Source of the DNA: an uncultured bacterium
Lineage (GTDB): Bacteria; Patescibacteriota; Minisyncoccia; Phycocordibacterales; UBA2100
Assembly (NCBI GenBank): GCA_903858755.1
Contig: CAIOKC010000029.1
Coordinates: 1,059 to 65,058, forward strand
DNA: 64,000 nt
Direction: 5' to 3'
Notes under the pieces: generated by a model
Seen by the model: only the letters and a program-made list of their open reading frames with translations
What the model was told of the DNA's origin: nothing
Database searches by the model: none
Shown: positions 16,637 through 57,387 of the stretch, piece by piece
Layout: every line of letters starts with the position of its first letter
Numbering within the stretch: the stretch's first letter is position 1
Translations under genes and position numbers: made by a program

Positions 16637-18082
16637 ATGGAGCGGAACACTATCCTCGTGACGGGCGGCGCTGGTCTCGTGGGCACGAATCTGTGCCGGC
16701 GGCTGCTGGAGCACGGCTGCCGCGTGATCTCACTCGACAACTACTTTGCCGGTTCGCGAGACAATCATATCGCAGGCGTCGAATATCGGGAGGGACACAC
16801 GAAAGATATCGCGCGCCATATCCCGGAGACGCCGGATATCATCTATCACCTCGGGGAATATTCGCGCGTCGAGCAGAGCCTCCTTGAGCCTGACGTAGTC
16901 CACGATCTCAATGTCGTCGGCACGGCAGCCGTGGTGGAATTCTGGAAAGAAAAGAAGTGCAAGCTGGTCTATGCCGGTTCGTCCACGAAATTCGGCGATG
17001 GAGGGCTCGCGCGGAGCGCGACGCCGTATGCCGCATCGAAGGCGGCGAATACCGAGCTGGTGAAAAAAGTCGGCGATGAGTTTCATCTCCCGTACGCGAT
17101 TACGTATTTTTACAATGTGTACGGTCCCGGAGAGCGCGCGGGGATTTATGGCACGCTCGTCGAGGCATTCAAGCAGATGTACCTGAGCGGCGCGCCGCTT
17201 GCAGTGACGTCCCCCGGCACTCAGCGGCGGAATTTCACGCATGTCGACGATATCGTGGACGCGCTCATCATGGTGGGAGACCGGGGTCAGGGAGACGAAT
17301 ACGGGCTCGGCAATGCGACGAGTTTTTCCGTGCTCGAGGTCGCGCACATGTTTGGCGGCTCCATAGTGATGCTGCCCGCGCGCGCGGGCAACCGCATGCA
17401 ATCGGCGCTCGACACGACGAAGATCAACGCGCTCGGGTGGAGACCGACGCGCACGCTCGATGGGTACATCCGCGAATTTCTTTCCAGTCATCCGCGCGGC
17501 GCGATGCGCGAGAAGCGCGTCCTCGTTTTCTCGACCACGTTTTACCCCACGGTCGGTCCCGCCGAAGAAGCGCTTCTTGAGCTCATGCGCAAAATGCCGG
17601 ATGTGCAGTTCGATGTCGTCACGAGCGCGTTCTCGCACGGTTCGGACGATGCGGCATGCCCGGTCGCGAATGCACATATCCACCGCGTTGGTTTCGGGTG
17701 GAAGGCGGATAAGTACCTTCTCCCCATCCTCGGCTATCACGTCGCGCGCCGGCTGCATGCGCGGCACTCGTACCTCTTTGCATGGTCGCTCATGGCGAGC
17801 TACGCCGCCGCGGCGGGCGCCGTCTTGAAGCGCACGACCAACCTTCCGCTTCTCATCACGCTCGCGGATCAGAATCTGCGCGACGTTTCGCATCTCGCGC
17901 GGCTCGTCCTCAGAGTGATTCTCACCGATGCGGACCAGGTGTACGGCGCCGCCTCGCAGGAGGAGCATGCGGCGAGTCTTTCGGGCAAGACCCTCCGGCA
18001 CTCAATGGGGGAGGGAGACGCTTTCGCCAACCAGCTCCGCTACGCGTATGCGGAAATACTTCTGAATCAAAAGAGCGCATGA
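16637..18082 (+). CDS. Fusion: UDP-glucuronate-decarboxylase-like SDR (UXS/NAD-dependent epimerase-dehydratase) + an extra GT4 N-terminal-domain copy
   Basis: Residues 1-~285 carry ILVTGGAGLVGTNL, DNYFAGSRDN and YAASK (extended SDR, UXS-like). Residues ~290-481 (KRVLVFSTTFYP...MRKMPDVQFDVVTSAF...HIHRVG) align with the N-domain of the next gene (KKVLILSLAYFP...ITDRMPDIEFHMITNRF...MVHRIG) but have no GT4 C-domain. Confidence 0.7.
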   Translation: MERNTILVTGGAGLVGTNLCRRLLEHGCRVISLDNYFAGSRDNHIAGVEYREGHTKDIARHIPETPDIIYHLGEYSRVEQSLLEPDVVHDLNVVGTAAVVEFWKEKKCKLVYAGSSTKFGDGGLARSATPYAASKAANTELVKKVGDEFHLPYAITYFYNVYGPGERAGIYGTLVEAFKQMYLSGAPLAVTSPGTQRRNFTHVDDIVDALIMVGDRGQGDEYGLGNATSFSVLEVAHMFGGSIVMLPARAGNRMQSALDTTKINALGWRPTRTLDGYIREFLSSHPRGAMREKRVLVFSTTFYPTVGPAEEALLELMRKMPDVQFDVVTSAFSHGSDDAACPVANAHIHRVGFGWKADKYLLPILGYHVARRLHARHSYLFAWSLMASYAAAAGAVLKRTTNLPLLITLADQNLRDVSHLARLVLRVILTDADQVYGAASQEEHAASLSGKTLRHSMGEGDAFANQLRYAYAEILLNQKSA

Positions 18083-19287
18083 AAAAAGTTCTCATACTCT
18101 CGCTCGCTTATTTCCCGAAGCATGTCGGCGGCGCCGAAGTGTCCATCAAGGAAATAACCGACCGCATGCCCGATATCGAATTTCACATGATAACCAATCG
18201 GTTTGATTCGACGCTGCCGCACGTCGAAAAGGTGGGCAACGTGATGGTGCATCGCATCGGCATCACGACCAAAAATCCGAGCATGGCAGATCTCAAAAAG
18301 CTGCCGCTCAACGTCAATAAGCTGCTGTACCAATTCCTCGCCGCGTGGCACGCGCTCCGACTCCACCGCGTGCATCGCTTCGACGCGCTGTGGGCGATGA
18401 TGGCGCACTCGACCGGAGTGCCTGCAGCGATCGTGAAGATGCTGCATCCGGAGATCGGCTACGTGCTCAATTTGCAAGAAGGAGATCCGACGGAATACAT
18501 CGAGAAAAAGATGCGCCCGCTCTGGCCCCTTTTCACGCGCGCCTTTACGAAAGCCGACATCATTCAGCCGCTTTCGACCTTCCTCGCGAAGTGGGCACGC
18601 GCTCGCGGCTTCATCGGACCTATCGAGATCATTCCGAATGCGGTCGCGGCGGAGCATTTTTCGCAGGAGTATCCTCCCGCGACCATTGATCGCATTCGCG
18701 ACGAGCTGGGGAAGGGCATGGGCGACGTCTTTCTCATCACCACGTCGCGGCTTGTCCACAAGAATGCGGTCGACGACTGCATCCGTGCGCTCTCGCTCCT
18801 CCCGCCACAGGTGCACTTCATCGTCCTTGGTACCGGACCCGACGAGGAGAAGCTCCGCACTCTAGCAGCAAGGTCCGACCTTGCTGGTCGGGTGCGTTTC
18901 GTCGGTCATATCGGGCATGCCGATATGCCGAAATACCTCAAAGCGAGCGACATTTTCATTCGCCCGAGCCGCTCGGAAGGATTTGGCGCCTCATTCGCCG
19001 AGGCGATGGCGGCAGGTCTCCCCGTCATTGCGACGCAAGAGGGCGGCATCGCGGATTTCCTTTTCGACGAGAAGCGAGATCCCGGTAAGCCCATCACCGG
19101 TTTTGCAGTCGACAAAGATTCACCTGACCAGATCGCAGAGCAAGTGAGAAACATCATGCATCACCCCGAGAAAGTGCGCGCCGTTGTCGCGACCGCGAAA
19201 GCGATGGTCGAGGAGAAATACGATTGGGATATTATCGCGCGTGATATGCGAGAAAGAGTATTTGCGCGCCTTCTGCACGAGGTATGA
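18079..19287 (+). CDS. GT4 glycosyltransferase
   Basis: Start ATG 18079 (ATGA overlap with the upstream stop). Full N- and C-domains with SEGFGASFAEAMAAGLPVIATQEGG. Contains an in-frame copy of the REP3 palindrome at 18867-18885. Confidence 0.8.
   Translation: MKKVLILSLAYFPKHVGGAEVSIKEITDRMPDIEFHMITNRFDSTLPHVEKVGNVMVHRIGITTKNPSMADLKKLPLNVNKLLYQFLAAWHALRLHRVHRFDALWAMMAHSTGVPAAIVKMLHPEIGYVLNLQEGDPTEYIEKKMRPLWPLFTRAFTKADIIQPLSTFLAKWARARGFIGPIEIIPNAVAAEHFSQEYPPATIDRIRDELGKGMGDVFLITTSRLVHKNAVDDCIRALSLLPPQVHFIVLGTGPDEEKLRTLAARSDLAGRVRFVGHIGHADMPKYLKASDIFIRPSRSEGFGASFAEAMAAGLPVIATQEGGIADFLFDEKRDPGKPITGFAVDKDSPDQIAEQVRNIMHHPEKVRAVVATAKAMVEEKYDWDIIARDMRERVFARLLHEV
18867..18885. repeat. REP3-type palindrome AGCAAGGTC-C-GACCTTGCT inside the GT4 coding sequence
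   Basis: Exact 19-nt match to the palindromes flanking the RAYT gene at 56072..56752. Here it encodes AARSDLAG within the GT4 ORF. Confidence 0.6.
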
Positions 19288-40887: not shown

Positions 40888-41228
40888 ACACGCGATCGCG
40901 CGACCTGGAAATATTTTTTGAAATAAAAACGCGATCGTCAGATGAGTTTTTATTTTCTAAAAAGTTATCCACATTCGCACACGTATGATGCATTGCGCAG
41001 GTACATCGGTGCAATAATGAAAGAGAAAACGCGTTGTGCTGCACATCGGTGCGCAGGCGTGGGTCGAACTTAGTACTCAAAACGAAATTTATATGGCAAA
41101 GAAAAAGAAGGCAAAGAAAGCAAAGGCAAAGAAGCGCCGCTAAGCTCGCGTTTCTCTGGCTAGAGAACCAACGATCCCTCCACCCGGAGGGATCGTTGTT
41201 CGTTGGGAGGAGACCGTATCACCAAGAA

Positions 41229-41259
41229 CCCACCTAGGACACGCCGTGTCCTAGGTGGG
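41229..41259. repeat. REP1 palindrome copy a: CCCACCTAGGACACG-C-CGTGTCCTAGGTGGG
   Basis: Perfect 15-1-15 inverted repeat. The core CTAGGACACG-N-CGTGTCCTAG recurs at 43807-43827 and 44492-44512. Confidence 0.65.
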
Positions 41260-41311
41260 TTCGTGTGCGGCGCGTGTCGCGCGAGATATTCATTTGCGGT
41301 AGGATGCTCCA

Positions 41312-43810
41312 ATGGCGTTCTGGAAACGACTCTTGGGAGATGAAAATGCGGCAGCGCTCAAGCGCGCGCAATTCATCGTCGAGCGGACGAACGCGCTCGA
41401 GGAGGGGGTGCGCGCCCTTTCGGATGACGCGCTCAAAGCGAAGACGACTGCTTTCAGGGATCGCATTCAAAAAGGAGAGGCGTTGGACGATCTCGCTCCT
41501 GAAGCATTTGCGGTGGTCCGTGAGGCTTCGCGCAGGACGCTCGGTCAGCGGCATTTCGATGTGCAGCTCATCGGTGGGATGATACTGCACCAAGGGGGGA
41601 TCGCCGAGATGCGGACCGGCGAGGGGAAGACACTTGTCGCGACCTTGCCCGCATACCTCAATGCTCTGTCGGGCAAAGGCGTGCACGTCGTCACCGTCAA
41701 CGACTATCTCTCCAGGCGCGATGCGGTATGGATGGGGCAGATTTACCACGCGCTTGGGATTTCGGTCGGAGTCATCAATCACGAATCTTCCTATCTCTAC
41801 GATCCATCGCACGCGATCGACGATGCCGAGCGAGACGAACTCGGCGCTTTCAAGGTGATGCACGATTTCCTGCGACCGTGCACGCGGCATGAAGCATACG
41901 CCGCGGATATCACGTACGGCACCAACAACGAGTACGGCTTCGACTACTTGCGGGACAATCTGGAATACGAGAGCTCCAAGCTTCGTCAGCGCTTGCCGCA
42001 GACGGGAGGATACCACTTTGCGATCGTCGACGAGATAGATTCGATCCTCATCGACGAAGCGCGAACGCCGCTCATCATCTCTGCGCCCGTCTCCGACGCG
42101 GAGTCGCTCTACGGGCGCTTCGCGAATATCGCCCGCACGCTCGCGCTCGGGGAGGATTACGCGGTCGACGAGAAGCACAAGCAGATATCGCTTACGGATG
42201 CGGGTATTGAGAAGGCGCAGAAAGCGCTCGGGATCGAGAACATCTATACGGACGCGGGCATCAAATACGTGCATCATCTCGAGACCGCGACGCGCGCCGC
42301 CGCTCTTTTCAGGCGGGACAAGGATTATGTCGTACGCGACGGCGCCATCGTGATCGTCGACGAATTCACCGGAAGACTCCAGCCGGGGCGGCGATGGTCT
42401 GAGGGTCTGCATCAGGCGATCGAAGCGAAGGAGGGAGTGCTTGTCCAGCAGGAATCTCGCACGTTCGCGTCGATCACGTTCCAGAATTATTTCCGCCTGT
42501 ATGGCAAGCTCGCCGGTATGACGGGCACGGCGACGACCTCGTCGGAAGAATTCTACAAAGTGTATGGTCTCAATACCGTAGTCGTCCCCACGAACAAGCA
42601 AGCCAAGCGCAAAGACAGCGACGATCTTATATTCCAGACCGAGAACGGGAAGATGAGGGCGATTGCGCGCAGGGTGAAAGAGCTGCATGAGAAAGGGCAG
42701 CCAGTCCTTGTGGGGACCGCTTCCGTCGAGAAGAACGAGCTCCTCTCGGCGCATTTCAAGCAGGAAGGAATCCCGCACGAGGTACTGAACGCGAAGAATC
42801 ATGAGCGGGAGGGCGAGATCATCGCGCAAGCAGGGAAGAGAGGCGCGGTCACGATCGCGACCAACATGGCGGGTCGCGGTGTGGACATCAAACTCGGCGG
42901 GAATCCTTCGATCGATGCAGAGTATGAGGCAGTAAAAGACCTGGGAGGACTCTTTGTCCTCGGTACCGAACGGCACGAGGCGCGCCGTATCGACAATCAG
43001 CTTCGCGGTCGCTCCGGTCGCCAAGGAGATCCCGGCGAAACGCAGTTTTTCGTATCGCTCGAAGATCCGCTCATGCGCATTTTCGCGAACGAGACAATCA
43101 AGCGCGTGATGGGTTCGTTCAACATACCGGAAGACGAGCCGATCCATAACCCGATGATCACGAGAGCGCTCGAGAAAGCACAGACGCGCATCGAAGAATT
43201 GCATTTCGATTCGCGGAAACACGTCCTCGCCTACGACGACGTCCTCAATATCCAGCGGCAATCCGTATACGCGCGCCGCCGCATGCTCCTGACGGGAGAG
43301 CACGCTGCGCTCGACGAGGAGCTTGCGCGCATTGGTCTCGGAGATGGGGCATTCGCAGCCACAGCGGAAAAGAAAAAGAGCGAGCTCGGAGACGCGTTCT
43401 ACCCGAGCGTCCGGCGTTTCCTTCTGCAGACGGTAGATTTCCTCTGGGTGGAACATCTGGAAGCGATGGAGTATTTGAGGAGTTCGGTCAATCTTCGCGC
43501 TTACGGTCAGCGGGATCCTCTTGTGGAATACAAGAAAGAAGGGCTCCGTCTCTTCCAGACCATGGAAGAAACGTATCAGATGCAAGCCGCGCACTCCCTG
43601 GCGAGCCTCGGAGCAGCGCCACCGAGCGCTCCTGCAAGCGCTGTCAGGAAAGCAGCGCTTGCCCTCACTGCGCAACACCCAGGGGGAGGGAGGGAAGAAT
43701 ACGGTCGCAACGACAGGATCACGATCACAAACGGGACGGAGACGCGAGAGATGAAGTACAAGAAAGCGGAAGGCTTGCTTTCGCAAGGCTGGCGCATCAT
43801 CGAAAACTAG
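41312..43810 (+). CDS. secA: Preprotein translocase ATPase subunit SecA
   Basis: 832 aa. MRTGEGKTLVATLPAYLNAL (Walker A), DEIDSILIDEARTPLIIS (DEAD-like), two NBDs, preprotein cross-linking domain and helical scaffold. The stop TAG lies within REP1 copy b. Confidence 0.9.
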   Translation: MAFWKRLLGDENAAALKRAQFIVERTNALEEGVRALSDDALKAKTTAFRDRIQKGEALDDLAPEAFAVVREASRRTLGQRHFDVQLIGGMILHQGGIAEMRTGEGKTLVATLPAYLNALSGKGVHVVTVNDYLSRRDAVWMGQIYHALGISVGVINHESSYLYDPSHAIDDAERDELGAFKVMHDFLRPCTRHEAYAADITYGTNNEYGFDYLRDNLEYESSKLRQRLPQTGGYHFAIVDEIDSILIDEARTPLIISAPVSDAESLYGRFANIARTLALGEDYAVDEKHKQISLTDAGIEKAQKALGIENIYTDAGIKYVHHLETATRAAALFRRDKDYVVRDGAIVIVDEFTGRLQPGRRWSEGLHQAIEAKEGVLVQQESRTFASITFQNYFRLYGKLAGMTGTATTSSEEFYKVYGLNTVVVPTNKQAKRKDSDDLIFQTENGKMRAIARRVKELHEKGQPVLVGTASVEKNELLSAHFKQEGIPHEVLNAKNHEREGEIIAQAGKRGAVTIATNMAGRGVDIKLGGNPSIDAEYEAVKDLGGLFVLGTERHEARRIDNQLRGRSGRQGDPGETQFFVSLEDPLMRIFANETIKRVMGSFNIPEDEPIHNPMITRALEKAQTRIEELHFDSRKHVLAYDDVLNIQRQSVYARRRMLLTGEHAALDEELARIGLGDGAFAATAEKKKSELGDAFYPSVRRFLLQTVDFLWVEHLEAMEYLRSSVNLRAYGQRDPLVEYKKEGLRLFQTMEETYQMQAAHSLASLGAAPPSAPASAVRKAALALTAQHPGGGREEYGRNDRITITNGTETREMKYKKAEGLLSQGWRIIEN

Positions 43811-44518
43811 GACACGCCGTGTCCTAGTTTTCGATGTCGAGGCTACGCTCTGCTTTCGCGCGATCAGAAATAATCGAGCGTATTTCGTTCTCGTACCTTC
43901 TTCTCGATCCCACCATATCTGTAAGCAGAGCGGTGTCGATTATGGAAGGGAAGTTTCGCACCCCGCAGTAGTCGAGGTGGCTGCTCCACCGATATTCCAG
44001 CAGATACTTCAGCGCTCTGTCTGGGTCGCGCACTCCGCCTGAGCGCCACGCGGGGAACTTGTGATCAAGTGGATTCAGATGCACATAATAGGGGATGTAC
44101 ATAAAGTGCGCGTCGCGTTGCAGCGGTATCTTTTTTGAGGGTCCTTGCCATAGCACGCCTGAGCGATCGTATTTTTCGTTGAAGTATTTCGCGTATCCCA
44201 TGTTGAATTTTTGCAGAAAACGAGAGATACCATGTTCCGTGCGCTCTGAAAGAATAAGGTGGTAATGGTTTTCCATGAGGCAGAATGCATGGATGCTGAC
44301 GAGCCGTTCCCGACTCTTCTCCGCATGTCGTCCGGGAAGGATGTAATTTTGCGCCAGCTTTTCGTCGTTGAAGGCATATAAATCATGCAGGAACCGCAAA
44401 CGGTCTTTGTCGTCGAGCACGACGGCGCGTTTCTCCACTCCGCGGTTTAGCACGTGGAACAACTCTTCTGCCATACCCCCATTGTACCAAACTAGGACAC
44501 GGCGTGTCCTAGTTTGGT
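43801..44518 (-). mobile_element. REP/RAYT unit 1: Y1 HuH transposase gene flanked by two REP1 palindromes
   Basis: REP1b (43801-43833, 16-1-16 palindrome) and REP1c (44486-44518) bracket the RAYT ORF. Confidence 0.6.
43824..44474 (-). CDS. REP-associated tyrosine transposase-like protein (Y1 HuH, COG1943/IS200-like fold)
   Basis: Start at ATG 44472-44474 (MAEELFHVLNRGVEKRAVV). HuH motif MENHYHLIL. Conserved sequence AHFMYIPYYVHLNPLD. Conserved C-terminal sequence RWSSHLDY. Confidence 0.65.
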   Translation of the reverse strand: MAEELFHVLNRGVEKRAVVLDDKDRLRFLHDLYAFNDEKLAQNYILPGRHAEKSRERLVSIHAFCLMENHYHLILSERTEHGISRFLQKFNMGYAKYFNEKYDRSGVLWQGPSKKIPLQRDAHFMYIPYYVHLNPLDHKFPAWRSGGVRDPDRALKYLLEYRWSSHLDYCGVRNFPSIIDTALLTDMVGSRRRYENEIRSIISDRAKAERSLDIEN

Positions 44519-44600
44519 GGGGGTAGATGCATAAGGATGATCTCAAGGATGATCACACGGAGGGTCTATAGAATGCGGCGCGGAGATTTGGTACAGTACG

Positions 44601-52246: not shown

Positions 52247-52978
52247 ATGATCGATTTACGAAATCACTCATCATATGGAGCTGTATCATGTGCTGAACAG
52301 GGGAGTCGATAAGCGAACTATCTTCATGCGTTCGGCGGATTATGCACGTTTCGTGCACGATATGTATGAATTCAATGACTCAAAACCAGCTAAGAATGCA
52401 AGTCGTAGCTTCGACCCATCAATGAGTGATTTCTCAATGAGTGATTTCGCAAATCGCTCATTGGAGCGGAAAAGAATTGTCGATATACATGGGTGGTGCC
52501 TGATGAAGAATCACTATCATTTGTTGGTATCAGAGCGGGTTGAGGGCGGTCTGACACTTTTTATTCGAAAGCTTAACGTGGGATACGCCAACTACTTCAA
52601 CGACGCATACAAACGGAGCGGTGCCCTTTTCCAGGGCAGGACGAAAAAGATACAGATCGCATCTGATGCGCATTTTCTCCACATGCTCCACTACATCCAT
52701 CTCAATCCGCTTGATTATGTCGCTGGCGCGAAATCCTGGCGCGCCGGTGGAATCTCTGATGTGCGCGCCGCCCGTGCGCAGTTGCAAAAGTATCGATGGA
52801 GCAGCTATCTCGACTACTGCGGTAAAAAGAACTTTCCGTCTGTTATTACAACGGACTTCATGCGCTCGTCGCTCGGCGACATCGAGAGAAAGACAATGGA
52901 GTATTTTGGAAAAATGGATCTGCCAGACATGAAGCACTACGTGCTCGAGTAGTATGAGTGATTTACGAAATCACTCAT
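52247..52978 (+). mobile_element. REP/RAYT unit 2: RAYT gene with upstream (imperfect), internal (in-frame) and downstream REP2 palindromes ATGAGTGATTT-NNN-AAATCACTCAT
   Basis: Copies at 52247-52271 (two mismatches), 52437-52461 (inside the CDS, one mismatch, plus an extra half-site at 52422-52433) and 52954-52978 (perfect). The perfect copy overlaps the start codon of the next gene. Confidence 0.6.
52275..52952 (+). CDS. REP-associated tyrosine transposase-like protein (Y1 HuH) paralog 2
   Basis: MELYHVLNRGVDKR...MKNHYHLLV (HuH)...AHFLHMLHYIHLNPLDY...YRWSSYLDY. Carries an in-frame ~11-aa insertion (SMSDFSMSDFANRSLE) encoded by REP2-like sequence, relative to paralog 1. Confidence 0.65.
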   Translation: MELYHVLNRGVDKRTIFMRSADYARFVHDMYEFNDSKPAKNASRSFDPSMSDFSMSDFANRSLERKRIVDIHGWCLMKNHYHLLVSERVEGGLTLFIRKLNVGYANYFNDAYKRSGALFQGRTKKIQIASDAHFLHMLHYIHLNPLDYVAGAKSWRAGGISDVRAARAQLQKYRWSSYLDYCGKKNFPSVITTDFMRSSLGDIERKTMEYFGKMDLPDMKHYVLE

Positions 52979-55900
52979 TGCGAAAGGGTGCGACTCGGGC
53001 TGATATAATGAGCGGAATGGGAGAAATGGGAGAGAATGTGCGACGTCTATTCGCGCTCGCGTTTGTGTTGCCGCTCTTTTTTGTTTTCGCGTACTTACTA
53101 CCCACGAGCGACACAGGACCCGTCCAGTTTGCCGACGCGCAGCTGGGGCGGTATGAAGTGGATTATTCGCTGCGGTTCAACGACGACGATAGTCCGTACC
53201 TCACCAAGACGTTTACGCAGGTCGGCTCGACGACGAAGTGGACTTTCAGTACATGGGTGAAGCCGGGCAATTTGAGCATAGACAGGTATCTCCTGGACGC
53301 CTATGTCGACGCGAACAACAGGACGTATATCGCGCTTGTGTCTTCAAATGCGCTGCAATTCGCCGACTACAGCGGCGGCTCCGCGAGATGCAACAAAATA
53401 ACATCCGCGCTCTTCCGTGACCCCGCCGCGTGGACGCACATCGTGGTTGCGGTGGATACGACACAGGCGACCGCCGCAAATAGGAATCGCATTTATGTGA
53501 ACGGCACGGAGATCACCTCTTTCAGCACTGACACGAATTGCACGCAAAATATCTCGACGTGGATAACCGACGACAACGACAATGCCGGGAGCAACGTAGT
53601 GCACAATCTCGGCAGGTATGGAGGAGGGTCGGCTTATTTCGACGGCTACCTTTCCGAAGCGTACCTCGTCGACGGGCAGCAGCTCACTCCCTCCTCCTTC
53701 GGCTTTTCCGATTCCAACGGCTACTGGCGTCCGAAGGCGTATCTCGGCACTTCAAGCGGCGCGAATAGTTTTTTCGGCACCAACGGCTTTTATTTCAACT
53801 TCGCCTCGACGACCGCGCTCGGCTGGAACCTCGCCTCGACCAGCGCCGCAACTGCCGCATGGACAGCGACCAATCTCGATGCGACGGATCAGACGATAGA
53901 CACGCCGTCGCACACATTCGCCGCTTTCAACAGTCTCGATAAATCAGGGACTGCCGGTACGTACAGCAACGGTAACTTGGTTTGGCTGAACTCGGCGGCT
54001 ACTGGCAACTACGCCCAAGCATACGGGTCAATTTCGATGACGAGTGGAAAATGGTACGCCGAATTCTACATGAATGATGTTACTAATGGTGCACCCGGGT
54101 TTATATTAGGAACAACAAATCCAGGCACTAACAGGTATTTGGGTCAAGATACTTACTCGTACTCGTATATAAGTGACGGCCGCAAGGTTAACAATAGTTC
54201 TTTTACAGCATACGGTGCTTCCTTCACAGTGGGAGATACCGTAAGTGTTACGATAGACGCGGATGCTGGGTCAGTGACCTTTTATAAAAACTGTTCAAGC
54301 CAAGGTGTAGCGTTTAGCGGCCTGACAGGACCGTTCCGCTTTGCCATCGACGGGGAAATAAACGGCGGGGCGAATGCGAATTTCGGACAACTCAAACACG
54401 CAACTTCTACGGCAACAGCGAACACCTTTAGAGACAGCGCTGGGGGGCACTTCATGTGTGCTCCGCCCTCCGGCTACAAAGCCCTCTCGACCGCCAATCT
54501 GCCCGACGTGGCGATACAGAAGCCGGCGAATTATTTCGACGCCGTCGCGTATACGGGAGACGCCGGAGCGACGAAGTCGATCTCGTCTCTCGCTTTTGCT
54601 CCGAGTCTTGTCTGGCTCAAAAACAGGTCGAGCGCGTATAGCCACACGCTTTTCGACGCGATACGAGGCGCGGGGAGCGGCATGTGCCTTTTTTCCAATG
54701 GAACAAACGCGGAAGGCGGCAACTGCGATTCGACCTACGGCTACCTTTCCTCCTTTGACTCGCTCGGATTTACCGTCACCAAAGGCAGCGACGCGACGAG
54801 CTACACCAACGGCTCAGGGCAGAACTACATCGCCTGGAACTGGAAAGAATCCGCAACGAGCGGGTTTGATATCGTCACCTACACCGGGGATGGGAATTCG
54901 TCCAAGACCGTAGGGCATTCGCTCGGGAGCGCGCCCGACTTTGTGATCCAGAAAAGCAGGAACGCGACCGGAGGCTGGCCAGTATATCATCGCTCGCTCG
55001 GCGCCACGGGTGCCGTGCAATTGGAATCCACCGGCGCGTTCAACGTGAGCAGCACATATTGGAACGACACGGCACCGGACGCGACAAACATAACGATAGG
55101 GTCGGGTCTCAACACCAATGGAACCACATATATTTTGTATGCGTTTGACGAAAAAGAAGGCTTCTCCAAATTCGGCTCATACACCGGCAACGGCTCCGCC
55201 GACGGACCGTTCGTTTACACGGGCTTCAAGCCGCGCTTTATCATGTTCAAGCGTACAGATACCGCTTCTGCCAATGCAGACTGGTTCATTCTTGATACGT
55301 CTCGTCTTTCATATAATCCAAACAATCTGTTTCTTTTTCCTGATTTGACCAATGCCGAGAACGCAGCTGGCCTACATTCTGCCGATTTCCTATCGAACGG
55401 ATTCAAGGTGCGCAATACTGGCGATGGCATGAACGCCTCCGGCGGCACCTACGTCTACGCCGCCTTCGCCGAGCAGCCGTTCAAACTTTCGGCGACCAAC
55501 AGTTTCTCGTGGTACGCGAATCTCTTCGGCGCCTCGGGCGAGACCATATTTACGAAAGCAGTGTCTATTACCGGCAATCTCTCGGTCCAATACCAGCTTT
55601 CCAAGGGCGCGGGCACGTTCGTCATCGACCACCCGCTTGATCCGAAAAATAAACTGCTCTATCACTCGTTCGTCGAATCACCGGATCAGAAAAATATCTA
55701 CGATGGGCTAGCGGAATTAGACGAAAATGGCGAGGCTGTCGTGGAGCTGCCGGATTATTTCCTCGCCCTCAACACCGACTATCGCTACCTCGCCACACCC
55801 ATAGGCGAGCCCATGCCTGATTTGCACCTCGACCGCGGCGTCGTGCGCCGCTGGCTTGGGCTTATCGGCGCGCCTGCATTCAAGCTCTCGGGGGGAGTGC

Positions 55901-56046
55901 CCGGCGGGCGCGTCTCCTGGCAGGTATCCGGCGTGCGCCAAGATCCGTATGCCCTCGACCACCCCATCACTCCCGAGGCGGAAAAAGGACCAGACCAGCT
56001 CGTCGACAAAGGGGAGTACCTCCACCCGGAATTCTATGCCAACTAA
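52954..56046 (+). CDS. Giant (~1030 aa) membrane-anchored LamG/concanavalin-A-like jelly-roll protein with a conserved ~170-aa C-terminal module
   Basis: The first 9 codons (MSDLRNHSL) are the REP2 palindrome itself. The true start may be ATG 53008. TM LFALAFVLPLFFVFAYLL. WTFSTWVKPGNLS...AWTHIVVAVD...NRIYVNGTEI is the LamG-type signature, and a second jelly-roll-like segment lies around 54000-54450. The C-terminal module GAGTFVIDHPLDPKNKLLYHSFVESPDQKNIYDG... is shared with the genes at 56806 and 57384. Confidence 0.55.
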   Translation: MSDLRNHSLRKGATRADIMSGMGEMGENVRRLFALAFVLPLFFVFAYLLPTSDTGPVQFADAQLGRYEVDYSLRFNDDDSPYLTKTFTQVGSTTKWTFSTWVKPGNLSIDRYLLDAYVDANNRTYIALVSSNALQFADYSGGSARCNKITSALFRDPAAWTHIVVAVDTTQATAANRNRIYVNGTEITSFSTDTNCTQNISTWITDDNDNAGSNVVHNLGRYGGGSAYFDGYLSEAYLVDGQQLTPSSFGFSDSNGYWRPKAYLGTSSGANSFFGTNGFYFNFASTTALGWNLASTSAATAAWTATNLDATDQTIDTPSHTFAAFNSLDKSGTAGTYSNGNLVWLNSAATGNYAQAYGSISMTSGKWYAEFYMNDVTNGAPGFILGTTNPGTNRYLGQDTYSYSYISDGRKVNNSSFTAYGASFTVGDTVSVTIDADAGSVTFYKNCSSQGVAFSGLTGPFRFAIDGEINGGANANFGQLKHATSTATANTFRDSAGGHFMCAPPSGYKALSTANLPDVAIQKPANYFDAVAYTGDAGATKSISSLAFAPSLVWLKNRSSAYSHTLFDAIRGAGSGMCLFSNGTNAEGGNCDSTYGYLSSFDSLGFTVTKGSDATSYTNGSGQNYIAWNWKESATSGFDIVTYTGDGNSSKTVGHSLGSAPDFVIQKSRNATGGWPVYHRSLGATGAVQLESTGAFNVSSTYWNDTAPDATNITIGSGLNTNGTTYILYAFDEKEGFSKFGSYTGNGSADGPFVYTGFKPRFIMFKRTDTASANADWFILDTSRLSYNPNNLFLFPDLTNAENAAGLHSADFLSNGFKVRNTGDGMNASGGTYVYAAFAEQPFKLSATNSFSWYANLFGASGETIFTKAVSITGNLSVQYQLSKGAGTFVIDHPLDPKNKLLYHSFVESPDQKNIYDGLAELDENGEAVVELPDYFLALNTDYRYLATPIGEPMPDLHLDRGVVRRWLGLIGAPAFKLSGGVPGGRVSWQVSGVRQDPYALDHPITPEAEKGPDQLVDKGEYLHPEFYAN

Positions 56047-56053
56047 CCTCCAC

Positions 56054-56793
56054 AGCAAGGTCCGACCTTGCTCAGACGCCTGGGTCGGCGTATTCGAGCC
56101 AGTCATGCACGGATTTTCTGAACGTAGCAGGGCTTTCAAAATACTCGGGCAGTGCTGTTGTGTCGACAATTTTTCTTTCGGGACGCTTTGTGCCGGCGTA
56201 GTCCGCGAAGCTCGAGTAGCGAAATTTCTCCAGGAATTCTTTTGTCCGAGATTGGTCTTTGATGCCGTTCTCTTTCCACTTCGAATCGATCAGCTTTACC
56301 GGATTCAAGTGGATGTACGATACGAGATACTTAAGATACCGATCGTTGCCCGCATGCTCGGCTTTATACTTGCCCTGGAAGAGCGCGCCAACTCGCTGGT
56401 AGCGCATATTAAAATACATTGCGTACGCGGTCGTGAGCTTCTGCATAAAAGTACTGATCCCGGAGTCGGAGCGTTCTCGTGCGAGAATGTGGAAGTGATT
56501 CGGCATCAGACAATAGGCGCATATGTCGATAAGCGGCTCGCCTCGGGTCTCGCCGAGCGCCGCGCTGAGCAGGGTTTTGCCTTTTGCGCGGCTGAGGTTG
56601 TCGAGCCGGATGGTTTCGGAGCCGTTGGCGAGGTAGAGGAGAGCAAGAAATCGCTCGTAGTCGGCTTTATTTTGGAATATTTTGCGTTTTTCCGTGCCGC
56701 GATTGTACAGGTGATAATATTCCTCTGGCGCGAACTCGATCTGTCTCGTCATGCCGCCAATGATACCATGGGACGAGCAAGGTCCGACCTTGC
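56054..56793 (-). mobile_element. REP/RAYT unit 3: RAYT gene flanked by REP3 palindromes AGCAAGGTC-C-GACCTTGCT
   Basis: Perfect 9-1-9 palindromes at 56054-56072 (overlapping the RAYT stop codon) and ~56775-56793. A third copy lies in a GT4 gene at 18867-18885. Confidence 0.6.
56072..56752 (-). CDS. REP-associated tyrosine transposase-like protein (Y1 HuH) paralog 3
   Basis: MTRQIEFAPEEYYHLYNRGTEKR...MPNHFHILA (HuH)...YLVSYIHLNPVKL...FRYSSFADY. Coordinates follow the ORF track. My own codon count placed the ATG 1 nt lower. Confidence 0.65.
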   Translation of the reverse strand: MTRQIEFAPEEYYHLYNRGTEKRKIFQNKADYERFLALLYLANGSETIRLDNLSRAKGKTLLSAALGETRGEPLIDICAYCLMPNHFHILARERSDSGISTFMQKLTTAYAMYFNMRYQRVGALFQGKYKAEHAGNDRYLKYLVSYIHLNPVKLIDSKWKENGIKDQSRTKEFLEKFRYSSFADYAGTKRPERKIVDTTALPEYFESPATFRKSVHDWLEYADPGV

Positions 56794-56805
56794 TATGGGA
56801 TACGT

Positions 56806-57387
56806 ATGAGCTTCACAAAGAGAATTGCCGCGCTGTTTGTCTTGTGCATTATGCTCGGGGCGGTTTCCGTCGCGCAGGGCGCGGTGAGCACGATATCCAT
56901 AACAACGAATACGCAAGTGGCGTCGAATCTCGACGTGCGCGGCTCCGTCTCAAAAGGAAGCGGCACCTTCGTCATCGATCACCCGCTCCACCCGCGCTCC
57001 ATGCTTCTGTACCATTCGTTCGTCGAGTCGCCGGACGCGAAGAACGTATACGACGGCATCGCTCGTCTCGATGAGAACGGGGAGGCGGCGATACAGCTGC
57101 CAGAGTATTTTGAAGCGCTCAACGAGAATTTCAGATATCAGTTTTTCCCTATAGACGAAGCGATGCCGCATCTCTACATCAAGCAGGAAGTGCGGGACAA
57201 CGCATTCGTCGTTGCCGGAGGCGAGCCGCGCGGCAGGATTTCGTGGCAGGTGACGGGCGTCCGCCACGACCCCTTCATCGTTGCACATCCGATCCGCGTG
57301 GAAGTGCCGAAAGGCGCGGGTCAACCTGTCAACAAAGGAGAATACCTTTTTGGAGGATACGAGCAGGATACGGAACCGTCGCCATGA
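56806..57387 (+). CDS. Secreted stand-alone copy of the ~170-aa shared C-terminal module
   Basis: Signal peptide MSFTKRIAALFVLCIMLGAVSVAQGAVS. GSGTFVIDHPLHPRSMLLYHSFVESPDAKNVYDGIARLDENGEAAIQLPEYFEALNENFRYQ...RISWQVTGVRHDPF aligns with the C-termini of the 52954 and 57384 genes. Confidence 0.55.
   Translation: MSFTKRIAALFVLCIMLGAVSVAQGAVSTISITTNTQVASNLDVRGSVSKGSGTFVIDHPLHPRSMLLYHSFVESPDAKNVYDGIARLDENGEAAIQLPEYFEALNENFRYQFFPIDEAMPHLYIKQEVRDNAFVVAGGEPRGRISWQVTGVRHDPFIVAHPIRVEVPKGAGQPVNKGEYLFGGYEQDTEPSP

What the first reader, a model, noticed from the sequence alone, without database searches (positions are those of the whole stretch)
52422..52978. REP palindromes embedded in-frame in coding sequences, including inside a RAYT gene and as the first codons of the LamG gene
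The REP2 sequence occurs inside RAYT paralog 2 as an in-frame insertion encoding SMSDFSMSDFANRSLE, which is absent from paralogs 1 and 3. The perfect downstream copy ATGAGTGATTTACGAAATCACTCAT supplies the annotated start codon and first 8 residues (MSDLRNHSL) of the 1030-aa LamG protein. REP3 also occurs in-frame inside a conserved GT4 gene (18867-18885, AARSDLAG) and overlaps the RAYT-3 stop codon. REP elements are normally intergenic. Here they appear to be tolerated, or exploited, as coding modules and translation start sites.
Basis: seen in the sequence. Interest (0 to 1): 0.65.

Follow-up and report, generated by a model that had tools for sequence, protein, structure and literature searches.

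The report
RAYT genes carrying their own hairpin in-frame
The palindrome inside the transposase-like gene is real, but it is an old, conserved feature: a whole family of these genes in Patescibacteria carries its own DNA hairpin three times (promoter, in-frame inside the gene, stop codon), whereas the "start codon" it seems to give the neighbouring surface-protein gene is most likely an ORF-calling artefact.

Summary
The sequence facts are correct. Three palindrome families each flank one Y1/HUH (RAYT-like) gene. REP2 also lies in-frame inside RAYT-2, and REP3 lies in-frame inside a GT4 gene.

The interpretation needs revision in three places.

1. The intragenic REP2 is not a private insertion. 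In 69 of 80 homologous loci from GTDB Patescibacteria, plus the window, the same slot holds a 9-24 bp hairpin. The slot is about codons 44-66, in a low-confidence loop upstream of the HUH motif. The hairpin recurs 2-26 nt upstream of the start codon and at or just after the stop codon. Stems differ between loci by compensatory changes (92.8% paired against 66% in shuffles). Copies within a locus are nearly identical. Orthologues of RAYT-3 carry REP3 in the same slot, and the window's RAYT-3 keeps a decayed relic.

2. ATG 52954 is built into the hairpin. The LamG gene has its own extended -10 box (53001-53009), and its homologues are 23-30 residues shorter at the N-terminus. The true start is probably 53017-53038.

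3. REP3 in GT4 adds no residues compared with 119 orthologues.

In-frame REPs, including some inside tnpA_REP genes, are already published. The positionally conserved three-hairpin architecture was not found in the literature searched.

The parts
52247..52271 (.). REP2 upstream copy. The left arm is degenerate. It ends 3 nt before the RAYT-2 start codon.
   Evidence: 2 mismatches; weak fold, -3.1 kcal/mol.
52275..52952 (+). RAYT-2, a Y1/HUH RAYT-like gene of 225 aa. HUH motif at H80-Y81-H82; Y140-x3-N144-P145.
   Evidence: Pfam PF01797, 24.5 bits against a gathering score of 23. NF047646, 37 bits, below its cut-off of 80. Foldseek top hit 4er8_A. Invariant columns.
52422..52436 (+). A 15-nt tandem duplicate of the left arm of the internal hairpin (encodes MSDFS). 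Specific to this window.
   Evidence: no homologue in the alignment has it.
52437..52461 (+). REP2 internal copy, in-frame (MSDFANRSL), loop CGC. It sits in the family-wide hairpin slot.
   Evidence: RNA fold -14.0 kcal/mol. Model pLDDT below 50 for residues 42-48 and 50-62.
52954..52978 (.). REP2 downstream copy, a perfect palindrome. It starts 1 nt after the RAYT-2 stop codon (TAG, 52950-52952). It contains the ATG of the longest LamG ORF.
53001..53009 (+). Extended -10 box TGATATAAT, the probable promoter of the LamG/DUF7483 gene.
   Evidence: 2 matches in 64 kb, 0.63 expected by chance. The other match (25269) sits in a canonical promoter. The two-hexamer scan found no -35/-10 pair in this region.
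53017..56046 (+). LamG-like/SPRY/DUF7483 surface protein. Probable start is ATG 53017 (leaderless geometry), ATG 53026, or GTG 53038 (GGAG at 53029-53032, 5-nt spacer).
18867..18885 (.). REP3 copy in-frame in the GT4 glycosyltransferase gene (about 18082-19287). It encodes ARSDLA and causes no length change relative to orthologues.
56054..56072 (.). REP3 copy between the convergent LamG gene and RAYT-3. It overlaps the RAYT-3 stop codon by 1 nt.
56072..56752 (-). RAYT-3, a Y1/HUH RAYT-like gene of 226 aa.
   Evidence: Pfam PF01797, 44.9 bits.
56568..56587 (-). Decayed relic of an internal in-frame REP3 in RAYT-3 (AKGKTLL). Orthologues carry a perfect REP3 here (QQGRTLL or EQGPTLL).
   Evidence: The 11-of-19 identity is my hand comparison of the window sequence with the L090 copy printed.
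56776..56794 (.). REP3 copy upstream of the RAYT-3 start codon, flanked by a direct repeat ATGGGA.
43824..44474 (-). RAYT-1, a Y1/HUH RAYT-like gene. It has no internal slot: it is 15 residues shorter there.
43798..43836 (.). REP1 copy: a 39-nt perfect palindrome that spans the stop codons of the convergent secA and RAYT-1 genes.
44486..44518 (.). REP1 copy upstream of RAYT-1.
41223..41265 (.). Dispersed REP1 copy, intergenic, upstream of secA.

Best explanation
SHOWN. The window comes from a Patescibacteria genome; the best hits are to Kaiserbacteria and Paceibacteria. It carries three paralogous Y1/HUH genes of the RAYT/TnpA_REP kind, each with its own short palindrome.

In this gene family the cognate hairpin normally occurs three times per gene:
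(i) 2-26 nt upstream of the start codon, usually abutting a TATACT -10 box placed for a leaderless mRNA;
(ii) in-frame at about codons 44-66, in a low-confidence loop between helix 1 and the strand that leads into the HUH motif;
(iii) at or just after the stop codon, often supplying the TGA.

The upper part of the hairpin (G-A-n-n-T, a CG-containing loop, A-n-n-T-C) is nearly constant. The lower stem is lineage-specific. All three copies in a locus carry the same stem. The encoded peptide changes with the stem (I with Q, S with H, F with R/T; DLRN against DFVN when the loop is flipped). Selection therefore acts on the palindrome rather than on the peptide.

REP2 inside RAYT-2 is the window's slightly decayed instance of this ancestral slot.

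INFERRED. The hairpins are the DNA sites that the encoded enzyme binds, and probably cuts and rejoins, as E. coli TnpA_REP does with REPs.
- The flanking pair corresponds to a REPtron or to IS200-type ends.
- The promoter copy would allow autorepression.
- The internal copy is kept as a third cis site.
- The three copies are homogenised either by enzyme-mediated strand exchange or by gene conversion.

The other parts of the finding are by-products.
- The ATG of the 3' hairpin happens to be in frame with the LamG gene, which has its own promoter and start further downstream.
- The GT4 copy is a dispersed REP3. REP3 has no stop codon in any of its six frames, and in related genomes it sits in-frame in many housekeeping genes.
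For: Family and fold:
- PF01797 hits for all three paralogs.
- Foldseek top hit is TnpA_REP bound to a REP hairpin (4er8_A, probability 1.0), followed by the ISDra2 and IS608 TnpA structures.
- HUH and Y-x3-NP columns are invariant.

The internal slot:
- Homologues of equal length carry the motif.
- 53 of the 63 segments first parsed (62 loci plus the window) have a stem of 9-24 bp there. So do 17 of the 18 remaining loci.
- 48 of 63 slot segments score 9 or more on the hairpin measure, against 0 of 188 control segments taken from the same genes.

Covariation:
- 92.8% of cells are paired, against 66% in shuffles and 31-45% when the partners are slid.
- 10 of 12 pairs show changes on both sides.
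- 142 cells changed on both sides, against 42 in shuffles.

Three copies per locus:
- 53 of 53 loci with a strong internal hairpin have further copies. 45 have one within 150 nt upstream, 45 have one at or after the stop, and 38 have both.
- Copies within a locus differ by 0.5 of 21 nt on average; internal copies from different loci differ by 7.5 of 21.
- The internal copy is as perfect as the flanking ones, and no one copy is preferentially the odd one out.

The slot is shared with the RAYT-3 clade:
- Orthologues L090, L103/L136 and L119/L121 carry REP3 in-frame at the same place as well as on both flanks.

DNA-level rather than RNA-level selection:
- The loop occurs in both orientations.
- G-U pairs are not enriched: 6 G-U cells against 44 other mismatches.

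Promoter geometry:
- 38 of 70 loci have a -10-like hexamer in -22..-1, and 25 have it exactly at -12. Control windows give 3. A Shine-Dalgarno-like motif is present in only 3 of 70.

The loop in the protein:
- pLDDT is below 50 for residues 42-48 and 50-62.

LamG start.

GT4 and REP3:
- No indel in 119 orthologues.
- REP3 lies in-frame in UvrB, a UvrD-like helicase, IF-2, an SMC-like protein, PheS, UDG, KsgA and an M17 peptidase in metagenome contigs.
- REP3 is stop-free in all six frames.
Against: - No biochemical or expression data exist. Binding, cleavage, autorepression and homogenisation are all inferred by analogy with E. coli TnpA_REP and IS608.
- The proteins are remote from curated RAYT models (NF047646 scores 37 bits against a cut-off of 80; the profile match to 4er8 has E = 0.55).
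- The canonical 5' GT[AG]G foot is not evident next to the hairpins listed.
- Genome-wide copy number could not be measured.
- About 14% of loci lack the internal hairpin, as do the window's RAYT-1 and RAYT-3. It is therefore dispensable for keeping an intact ORF.
- The window's own RAYT-2 locus is atypical: the upstream copy is degenerate, there is no clear -10 box, and the internal copy carries a duplicated arm.
- The structure model is only of medium confidence (mean pLDDT 65.7).
- The within-locus similarity figure is partly circular, because copies were collected with a limit of 3 mismatches or fewer.
Confidence: 0.75

Rival explanations
1. REPs have recently transposed into coding sequences (RAYT-2, GT4). 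There they are tolerated or exploited as added coding modules, and the 3' REP2 has been co-opted as the translation start of the LamG gene.
For: - The palindromes are exact or near-exact copies of the flanking REPs.
- RAYT-1 lacks the segment.
- REP3 does occur as apparent in-frame singlets and doublets in housekeeping genes of related organisms.
- ATG 52954 lies 1 nt after the RAYT-2 stop codon, so termination-reinitiation is conceivable.
Against: - The slot is occupied in 69 of 80 homologous loci, in a constant reading phase and with no length difference within the clade.
- It is also occupied in RAYT-3 orthologues.
- GT4 shows no indel against 119 orthologues.
- Only 1 of 30 hairpin ATGs opens a long ORF.
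- The LamG gene has its own extended -10 box downstream of that ATG, and its homologues have shorter N-termini.
Confidence: 0.08
2. The internal hairpin acts at the RNA level. It would be an mRNA stem-loop that slows translation, is cut by an RNase, or stabilises the message. It would not be a DNA site for the transposase-like enzyme.
For: - The internal and 3' copies are transcribed with the gene.
- The window's internal copy folds best as RNA, with one G-U pair (-14.0 kcal/mol).
- REPs are known mRNA stabilisers in enterobacteria (background in PMC3733652).
Against: - If the -10 geometry is right, the upstream copy lies outside a leaderless transcript, yet it is kept identical to the other two.
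- The loop is flipped freely between ACG and CGT. That changes the RNA loop but not the pair of DNA strands.
- G-U pairs are not favoured over other mismatches.
- There is no U-tract after the 3' copy.
Confidence: 0.12
3. The M-x-D-[LF]-[RV]-N-x-S motif is conserved for a protein function, and its palindromic DNA is a coincidence.
For: A recognisable peptide motif is present across homologues.
Against: - The peptide varies widely (MIDLRNQS, MFDLRGRT, YRDFVNPD, MWDFVSPT, IMDVGHPY), while base pairing is kept at 92.8% through compensatory changes.
- The same 21-mers recur in non-coding flanks.
- The region is modelled as a low-confidence loop.
Confidence: 0.02

Closest known systems
REPtrons: RAYT/TnpA_REP genes flanked by their cognate REPs (Nunvar 2010, PMC2817692; Ton-Hoang 2012, PMC3333891; Bertels & Rainey 2011, PMC3116915)
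   Same: - A Y1/HUH gene bracketed by copies of a gene-specific palindrome.
- Several paralogous gene-palindrome pairs per genome.
- Paralogs within a genome are divergent, not identical copies as in an insertion sequence.
- Dispersed copies of the palindrome occur elsewhere in the genome.
   Different: - A third, in-frame copy sits in a conserved slot.
- No GT[AG]G foot is evident.
- The stems are short and perfect, with a 3-nt CG-containing loop.
- Copy number appears low to moderate.
- The proteins score below the curated RAYT model cut-off.
- The hosts are Patescibacteria.
Subclass 2.4 TnpA_REP genes with REPs inserted in-frame inside the gene (Quentin et al. 2018, PMC6006769, section 13)
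   Same: The cognate REP lies inside its own tnpA_REP gene without breaking the reading frame, in a peripheral and variable region of the protein.
   Different: [quoted passage not shown] The REPs are long, GTAG-footed or 'double-foot' types. The feature was described as unique to subclass 2.4.
- Here, the slot is upstream of HuH and the HuH-Y distance is 58 aa. A C-terminal RWSS serine motif is present. The copy is fixed in position and phase, and it evolves in concert with the flanking copies.
Intragenic REPs and Rickettsia palindromic elements (Di Nocera et al. 2013, PMC3733652, which cites the Rickettsia RPE work)
   Same: - Short palindromes sit in-frame in housekeeping genes, notably repair and translation genes. 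REP3 shows this in UvrB, a UvrD-like helicase, IF-2 and PheS.
- REPs at ORF 5' ends are usually artefacts of a start codon called too far upstream.
   Different: The GT4 copy adds no residues, so it is a same-length replacement. The element family and the host phylum are different.
IS200/IS605 insertion sequences (IS608, ISDra2), with subterminal left-end and right-end hairpins
   Same: A Y1/HUH enzyme of the same fold, with its gene bracketed by hairpins that the enzyme recognises as single-stranded DNA.
   Different: - In those elements the left and right hairpins differ from each other.
- They have no intragenic copy.
- They occur as multiple near-identical copies.
- Here, paralogs share only 34-51% identity and the neighbouring genes are not conserved between loci.

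Membership tests
RAYT / TnpA_REP (class 2 Y1 HUH endonucleases) | HUH motif and a catalytic Tyr in a Y-x-x-x-N-P motif | tested here: met
   H80, H82, Y140, N144 and P145 are invariant across 29-32 homologues. Y---NP is the class 2 signature according to PMC6006769.
RAYT / TnpA_REP (class 2 Y1 HUH endonucleases) | Score above the curated profile thresholds | tested here: inconclusive
   Pfam PF01797: 24.5, 44.9 and 30.1 bits against a gathering score of 23, so this is met, marginally for RAYT-2. NCBIfam NF047646: 34-46 bits against a cut-off of 80, so this is not met.
RAYT / TnpA_REP (class 2 Y1 HUH endonucleases) | TnpA_REP / IS200-type fold | tested here: met
   Foldseek top hit 4er8_A (E = 1.5e-3, probability 1.0, TM-score 0.38/0.49), followed by ISDra2 and IS608 TnpA. 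The model is of medium confidence.
RAYT / TnpA_REP (class 2 Y1 HUH endonucleases) | Gene flanked by its cognate palindromes (REPtron arrangement) | tested here: met
   True for all three paralogs in the window. 45 of 53 loci have an upstream copy and 45 of 53 have a downstream copy.
RAYT / TnpA_REP (class 2 Y1 HUH endonucleases) | REP with a 5' GT[AG]G guide tetranucleotide at the foot of the hairpin | tested here: not met
   By eye, no conserved GTAG or GTGG lies next to the hairpins in the flanks listed. The GTAG before the window's 3' copy is not shared by other loci. No formal motif search was run.
RAYT / TnpA_REP (class 2 Y1 HUH endonucleases) | Palindrome dispersed in many copies through the genome | tested here: inconclusive
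   There are only 3 copies of each family in 64 kb. 5 of 53 loci have an extra copy more than 150 nt from the gene within +/-4 kb. The exact REP3 19-mer was found 82 times in 63 metagenome stretches, with up to 6 copies on one 31.7-kb contig. No whole genome was available.
Subclass 2.4 TnpA_REP with intragenic REPs (PMC6006769) | [quoted passage not shown] | tested here: not met
   The slot is at residues about 44-66, upstream of HuH (residues 80-82). The HuH-Y distance is 58 aa.
IS200/IS605 insertion sequence | Several near-identical copies per genome, and mobility as a unit | tested here: not met
   The window's paralogs share 34-51% identity. Loci taken from the same assembly carry different hairpins. 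The neighbouring genes differ between loci.
RPE-like in-frame palindromic insertion in a housekeeping gene | The palindrome adds residues relative to orthologues that lack it | tested here: not met
   For GT4, there is no gap in 120 aligned sequences across the site. This was not tested for the REP3 doublets in UvrB, IF-2 and PheS found in metagenome contigs.

The most novel reading that the evidence does not exclude
The in-frame slot is a functional, self-referential cis element. On this reading, the gene stores a selection-protected copy of its own enzyme's target inside its coding sequence. The enzyme would use that copy to sense or limit its own expression, or as a template that keeps the promoter copy, the stop-codon copy and the dispersed copies identical. 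Hairpin specificity and gene would then be inherited as one unit. A bolder version holds that the hairpin-encoded peptide itself contributes to recognising the hairpin that encodes it.
Probability: 0.25. Interest if true: 0.8.

Novelty: new variant of a known kind. Interest (0 to 1): 0.6.

Why it matters
What RAYT/TnpA_REP enzymes do for their hosts, and how they co-evolve with their REPs, is still unsettled.

This family offers dozens of natural enzyme-hairpin pairs with different lower stems (36 distinct 9-nt arms among 53 loci). In each pair the target is written three times in and around the gene. That is a ready-made covariation data set for working out recognition rules. It also gives a simple experiment: recode the internal hairpin and look for autoregulation or loss of copy homogeneity.

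There is a practical lesson for annotation as well. In these compact genomes the hairpins overlap stop codons and carry ATGs, and these can mislead ORF callers. Examples here are the LamG start and the TTG-extended RAYT-1 ORF. The hairpins also decorate housekeeping proteins with short peptides (ARSDLA, QQGRTLL).

Tried and rejected
- The first literature search ('RAYT, REP, Patescibacteria' with word-start matching) returned only noise. Whole-word searches found the relevant papers. Searches for a description in candidate phyla radiation bacteria found nothing relevant.
- A profile search of PDB sequences gave only E = 0.55 for 4er8. The fold search was needed to link the family.
- My first regular expression missed 18 loci. 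Re-examination showed that 17 of them have the same architecture.
- A first control for hairpin strength was contaminated by the 3' hairpin and was redone.
- Synteny: the neighbours of RAYT-2 are not conserved. Only L036 has LamG and the surface-protein gene nearby, and only L054 has secA. Context therefore gives no functional clue.
- The two-hexamer promoter scan found nothing around the LamG gene. The promoter argument rests on the extended -10 box only.
- No GT4 homologue carrying REP3 was found among the metagenome loci, so the origin of the same-length REP3 patch in GT4 stays unexplained. A native AARLDVSA sequence in one orthologue (L083) suggests that short-patch conversion of a fortuitously similar sequence is possible.
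- I asked whether the internal copy is a 'master copy' that differs systematically from the flanking copies. It shows no such bias.
Full report
**1. The observation**

The region was read directly and ORFs were listed. The window holds three genes with the Pfam Y1_Tnp domain (PF01797):
- RAYT-1, 43824-44474, minus strand.
- RAYT-2, 52275-52952, plus strand.
- RAYT-3, 56072-56752, minus strand.

Each is bracketed by its own palindrome.
- REP1 (CTAGGACACGNCGTGTCCTAG) lies at 43807 and 44492, with a further copy at 41234.
- REP2 (ATGAGTGATTTACGAAATCACTCAT) lies at 52247 and 52954, with a copy inside the gene at 52437.
- REP3 (AGCAAGGTCCGACCTTGCT) lies at 56054 and 56776, with a copy at 18867 inside a GT4 glycosyltransferase ORF.

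No dinucleotide shuffle produced any of these matches.

The internal REP2 is in frame. A 15-nt duplicate of its left arm precedes it. The perfect downstream copy begins 1 nt after the RAYT-2 stop codon and contains the ATG of the longest ORF of the next gene.

**2. The intragenic REP2 is a family feature, not a private insertion**

A protein search with RAYT-2 found 3429 relatives (E <= 1e-10). Those that carry names are from Kaiserbacteria, Parcubacteria, Paceibacterota and other Patescibacteria. Their lengths are about 215-230 aa, the same as RAYT-2.

In the alignment, almost all of them have M-x-D-[LF]-[RV]-N-x-[ST]-[LSF] where RAYT-2 has MSDFANRSL. The amino-acid pairs that co-occur are exactly those a DNA palindrome dictates: I with Q, S with H, F with R/T. 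DLRN and DFVN are the two orientations of one loop.

I fetched 80 homologous loci from GTDB species representatives and examined the DNA.
- 53 of the 63 segments first parsed (62 loci plus the window) have a stem of 9-24 bp in this slot, mostly with a 3-nt loop ACG or CGT.
- 17 of the remaining 18 loci have one too.
- In total that is 69 of 80 loci, plus the window.
- Control segments of the same length from the same genes never reach a comparable hairpin score: 0 of 188, against 48 of 63 for the slot.

A formal pair count on 52 aligned internal hairpins gave the following:
- 92.8% of cells paired, against 66% in shuffles and 31-45% with slid partners.
- 10 of 12 pairs with changes on both sides.
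- 142 cells changed on both sides, against 42 expected.

Only G10, T14 and A18 are strictly invariant. A11, T21 and C22 are at least 90% conserved. The loops listed nearly all contain CG. The lower stem differs between lineages: there are 36 distinct arms among 53 loci.

**3. Three copies per gene, evolving together**

In all 53 loci with a strong internal hairpin, the same 21-mer recurs elsewhere in the locus (3 mismatches or fewer).
- 45 have a copy ending within 150 nt upstream of the start codon, typically 2-26 nt.
- 45 have a copy at or just after the stop codon.
- 38 have both.
- In 20 of 45 loci the 3' hairpin overlaps the stop codon.

Copies within a locus differ by 0.5 of 21 nt on average. 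Internal copies from different loci differ by 7.5 of 21. Note that the within-locus copies were selected with a limit of 3 mismatches.

The internal copy is as perfect as the flanking ones, and none of the three is preferentially the deviant. Loop orientation varies. The upstream copy is mostly CGT and the downstream copy mostly ACG on the coding strand.

G-U pairs are not favoured over other mismatches. Together with the loop flips, this argues for a constraint on DNA rather than on mRNA.

**4. The same slot in the RAYT-3 clade**

An exact-match scan of metagenome contigs for REP3 gave 82 matches in 63 stretches. RAYT-3 orthologues there (50-62% identity) carry REP3 on both flanks and also in-frame at the homologous position, read as QQGRTLL or EQGPTLL.

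The window's RAYT-3 has AKGKTLL at that position. This is a decayed relic, 11 of 19 nt identical by my hand comparison with the L090 copy. RAYT-1 is 15 residues shorter at the site.

The slot is therefore older than the split between these paralogs, which share 34-51% identity. It has been lost or eroded in two of the window's three genes.

**5. What the proteins are**

- HUH (H80-Y81-H82) and Y140-x3-N144-P145 are invariant.
- The AlphaFold model (mean pLDDT 65.7) matches TnpA_REP bound to a REP hairpin best (4er8_A), followed by the ISDra2 and IS608 transposases.
- The curated RAYT model NF047646 is matched only below its cut-off.
- The peptide encoded by the hairpin falls in a low-confidence loop (pLDDT below 50 for residues 42-48 and 50-62) between helix 20-32 and strand 69-76.
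- Paralogs within a genome are divergent and carry different hairpins. Their gene neighbours are not conserved. This is REPtron-like behaviour, not insertion-sequence behaviour.

**6. Promoter geometry**

In 38 of 70 loci a -10-like hexamer (TATACT in 22) lies in -22..-1. In 25 loci it is exactly at -12. Control windows give 3. Shine-Dalgarno-like motifs are almost absent (3 of 70).

This suggests leaderless mRNAs, with the upstream hairpin sitting in the spacer and -35 region of the promoter. That position is suited to autorepression. This step is inference.

**7. The LamG start**

The conserved domain of the 1030-aa ORF starts at residue 64-66. Homologues whose domain is N-terminal have about 28-40 residues before it, with an n-region of 8-11 residues followed by a hydrophobic helix. 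That is 23-30 residues fewer than the window's long ORF.

Further points:
- ATG 52954 is buried in an 11-bp perfect stem (-11.4 kcal/mol) and has no Shine-Dalgarno sequence.
- Of 30 loci whose 3' hairpin starts with ATG on the RAYT strand, only the window gives a long ORF. The others give 92 aa or fewer.
- An extended -10 box, TGATATAAT, lies at 53001-53009. It is one of only two in the window. The other is part of a canonical TTGACG-17-TGTTATAAT promoter.
- The box is positioned so that ATG 53017 would be a leaderless start. GTG 53038 has GGAG with a 5-nt spacer.
- The simple two-hexamer scan found no promoter here.

I conclude that the REP-supplied start is most probably an artefact of taking the longest ORF. 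Di Nocera et al. argued the same for REPs at ORF 5' ends (PMC3733652).

**8. GT4**

The gene most likely starts near 18082 (402 aa). The 119 orthologues (68-79% identity) show no gap across the site. The window has LAARSDLAGRV where the consensus is LAADLGVSERV. Two usually hydrophobic positions are changed: L (93 of 120) to S, and V (98 of 120) to L. REP3 therefore replaces native sequence of equal length and adds nothing.

One orthologue encodes AARLDVSA. Conversion of a fortuitously similar native stretch is therefore possible but unproven.

REP3 has no stop codon in any of its six frames. In related metagenome contigs it lies in-frame, as singlets or doublets, in UvrB, a UvrD-like helicase-nuclease, IF-2, an SMC-like protein, PheS, UDG, KsgA and an M17 peptidase. 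Several of these (UvrB, a UvrD-type helicase, a tRNA synthetase) fall in the repair and translation gene classes reported for other REP families (PMC3733652).

**9. Comparison with what is known**

- REPs flanking RAYT genes (REPtrons) are well known (PMC2817692, PMC3333891).
- In-frame REPs in housekeeping genes are well known (PMC3733652).
- Quentin et al. reported REPs inserted in-frame inside tnpA_REP genes. [quoted passage not shown]

The present family differs. Its slot is upstream of HuH. Its HuH-Y distance is normal (58 aa). It has a C-terminal RWSS motif, and no GTAG foot is evident. Above all, the copy is fixed in position and phase and is kept identical to the promoter and stop-codon copies. 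I found no description of this in the library searched.

**10. Verdict**

- The general phenomenon is already known.
- The conserved three-hairpin architecture appears to be a new variant, well supported by comparative evidence.
- The proposed mechanism is the enzyme's own binding and cleavage sites, with autoregulation and copy homogenisation. It is inferred by analogy and untested.

Noticed in passing
window 43798-43836: REP1 here is a 39-nt perfect palindrome. It supplies the last three codons and the stop codon (ATC GAA AAC TAG, giving ...IEN*) of both convergent genes, secA and RAYT-1. In locus L054 a RAYT homologue is likewise convergent with secA.
   Followed up: partly
window 44475-44546: The longest ORF for RAYT-1 (TTG at 44546) reads through the upstream REP1 as TRTRRVL. 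The conserved N-terminus MAEELFHVLNRG starts at 44474. This is a second example of a REP extending an ORF.
   Followed up: partly
L001-L080, 22 nt upstream of the RAYT start codons: A -10-like TATACT box lies exactly at -12 in 25 of 70 loci, and Shine-Dalgarno motifs are almost absent (3 of 70). This suggests that these genes are expressed from leaderless mRNAs.
   Followed up: partly
L086, L104, L107, L109, L113, L130, L140, L143 (metagenome contigs): Exact REP3 singlets or inverted doublets lie in-frame in IF-2, UDG, PheS, an SMC-like protein, UvrB, a UvrD-like helicase-nuclease, KsgA and an M17 peptidase. They are read as ARSDLA, QQG[RP]TLL or SKV[RG]PC. I did not test whether they add residues.
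   Followed up: partly
window 56768-56773 and 56795-56800: A direct repeat ATGGGA flanks the REP3 copy upstream of RAYT-3. It could be a target duplication or it could be chance.
   Followed up: no
window 55480-56046 and 56806-57387: The C-terminal module of the LamG/DUF7483 protein (GTFVIDHPL...LLYHSFVESPD...) recurs as a separate 193-aa ORF just beyond RAYT-3. RAYT-3 and its REP3 copies therefore sit between two paralogous modules. L036 has three such modules in tandem.
   Followed up: partly
window 52247-52275: The window's RAYT-2 locus looks partly decayed compared with its relatives. The upstream hairpin has two left-arm mismatches and ends only 3 nt from the ATG. No TATACT box is present. 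The internal copy has a duplicated arm and a CGC loop.
   Followed up: partly
window 18856-18896: In GT4 the REP3 core is extended by partly complementary native codons (CGCAC...GTGCG) into a 41-nt imperfect palindrome. As RNA it folds at -26.2 kcal/mol inside the coding region.
   Followed up: no
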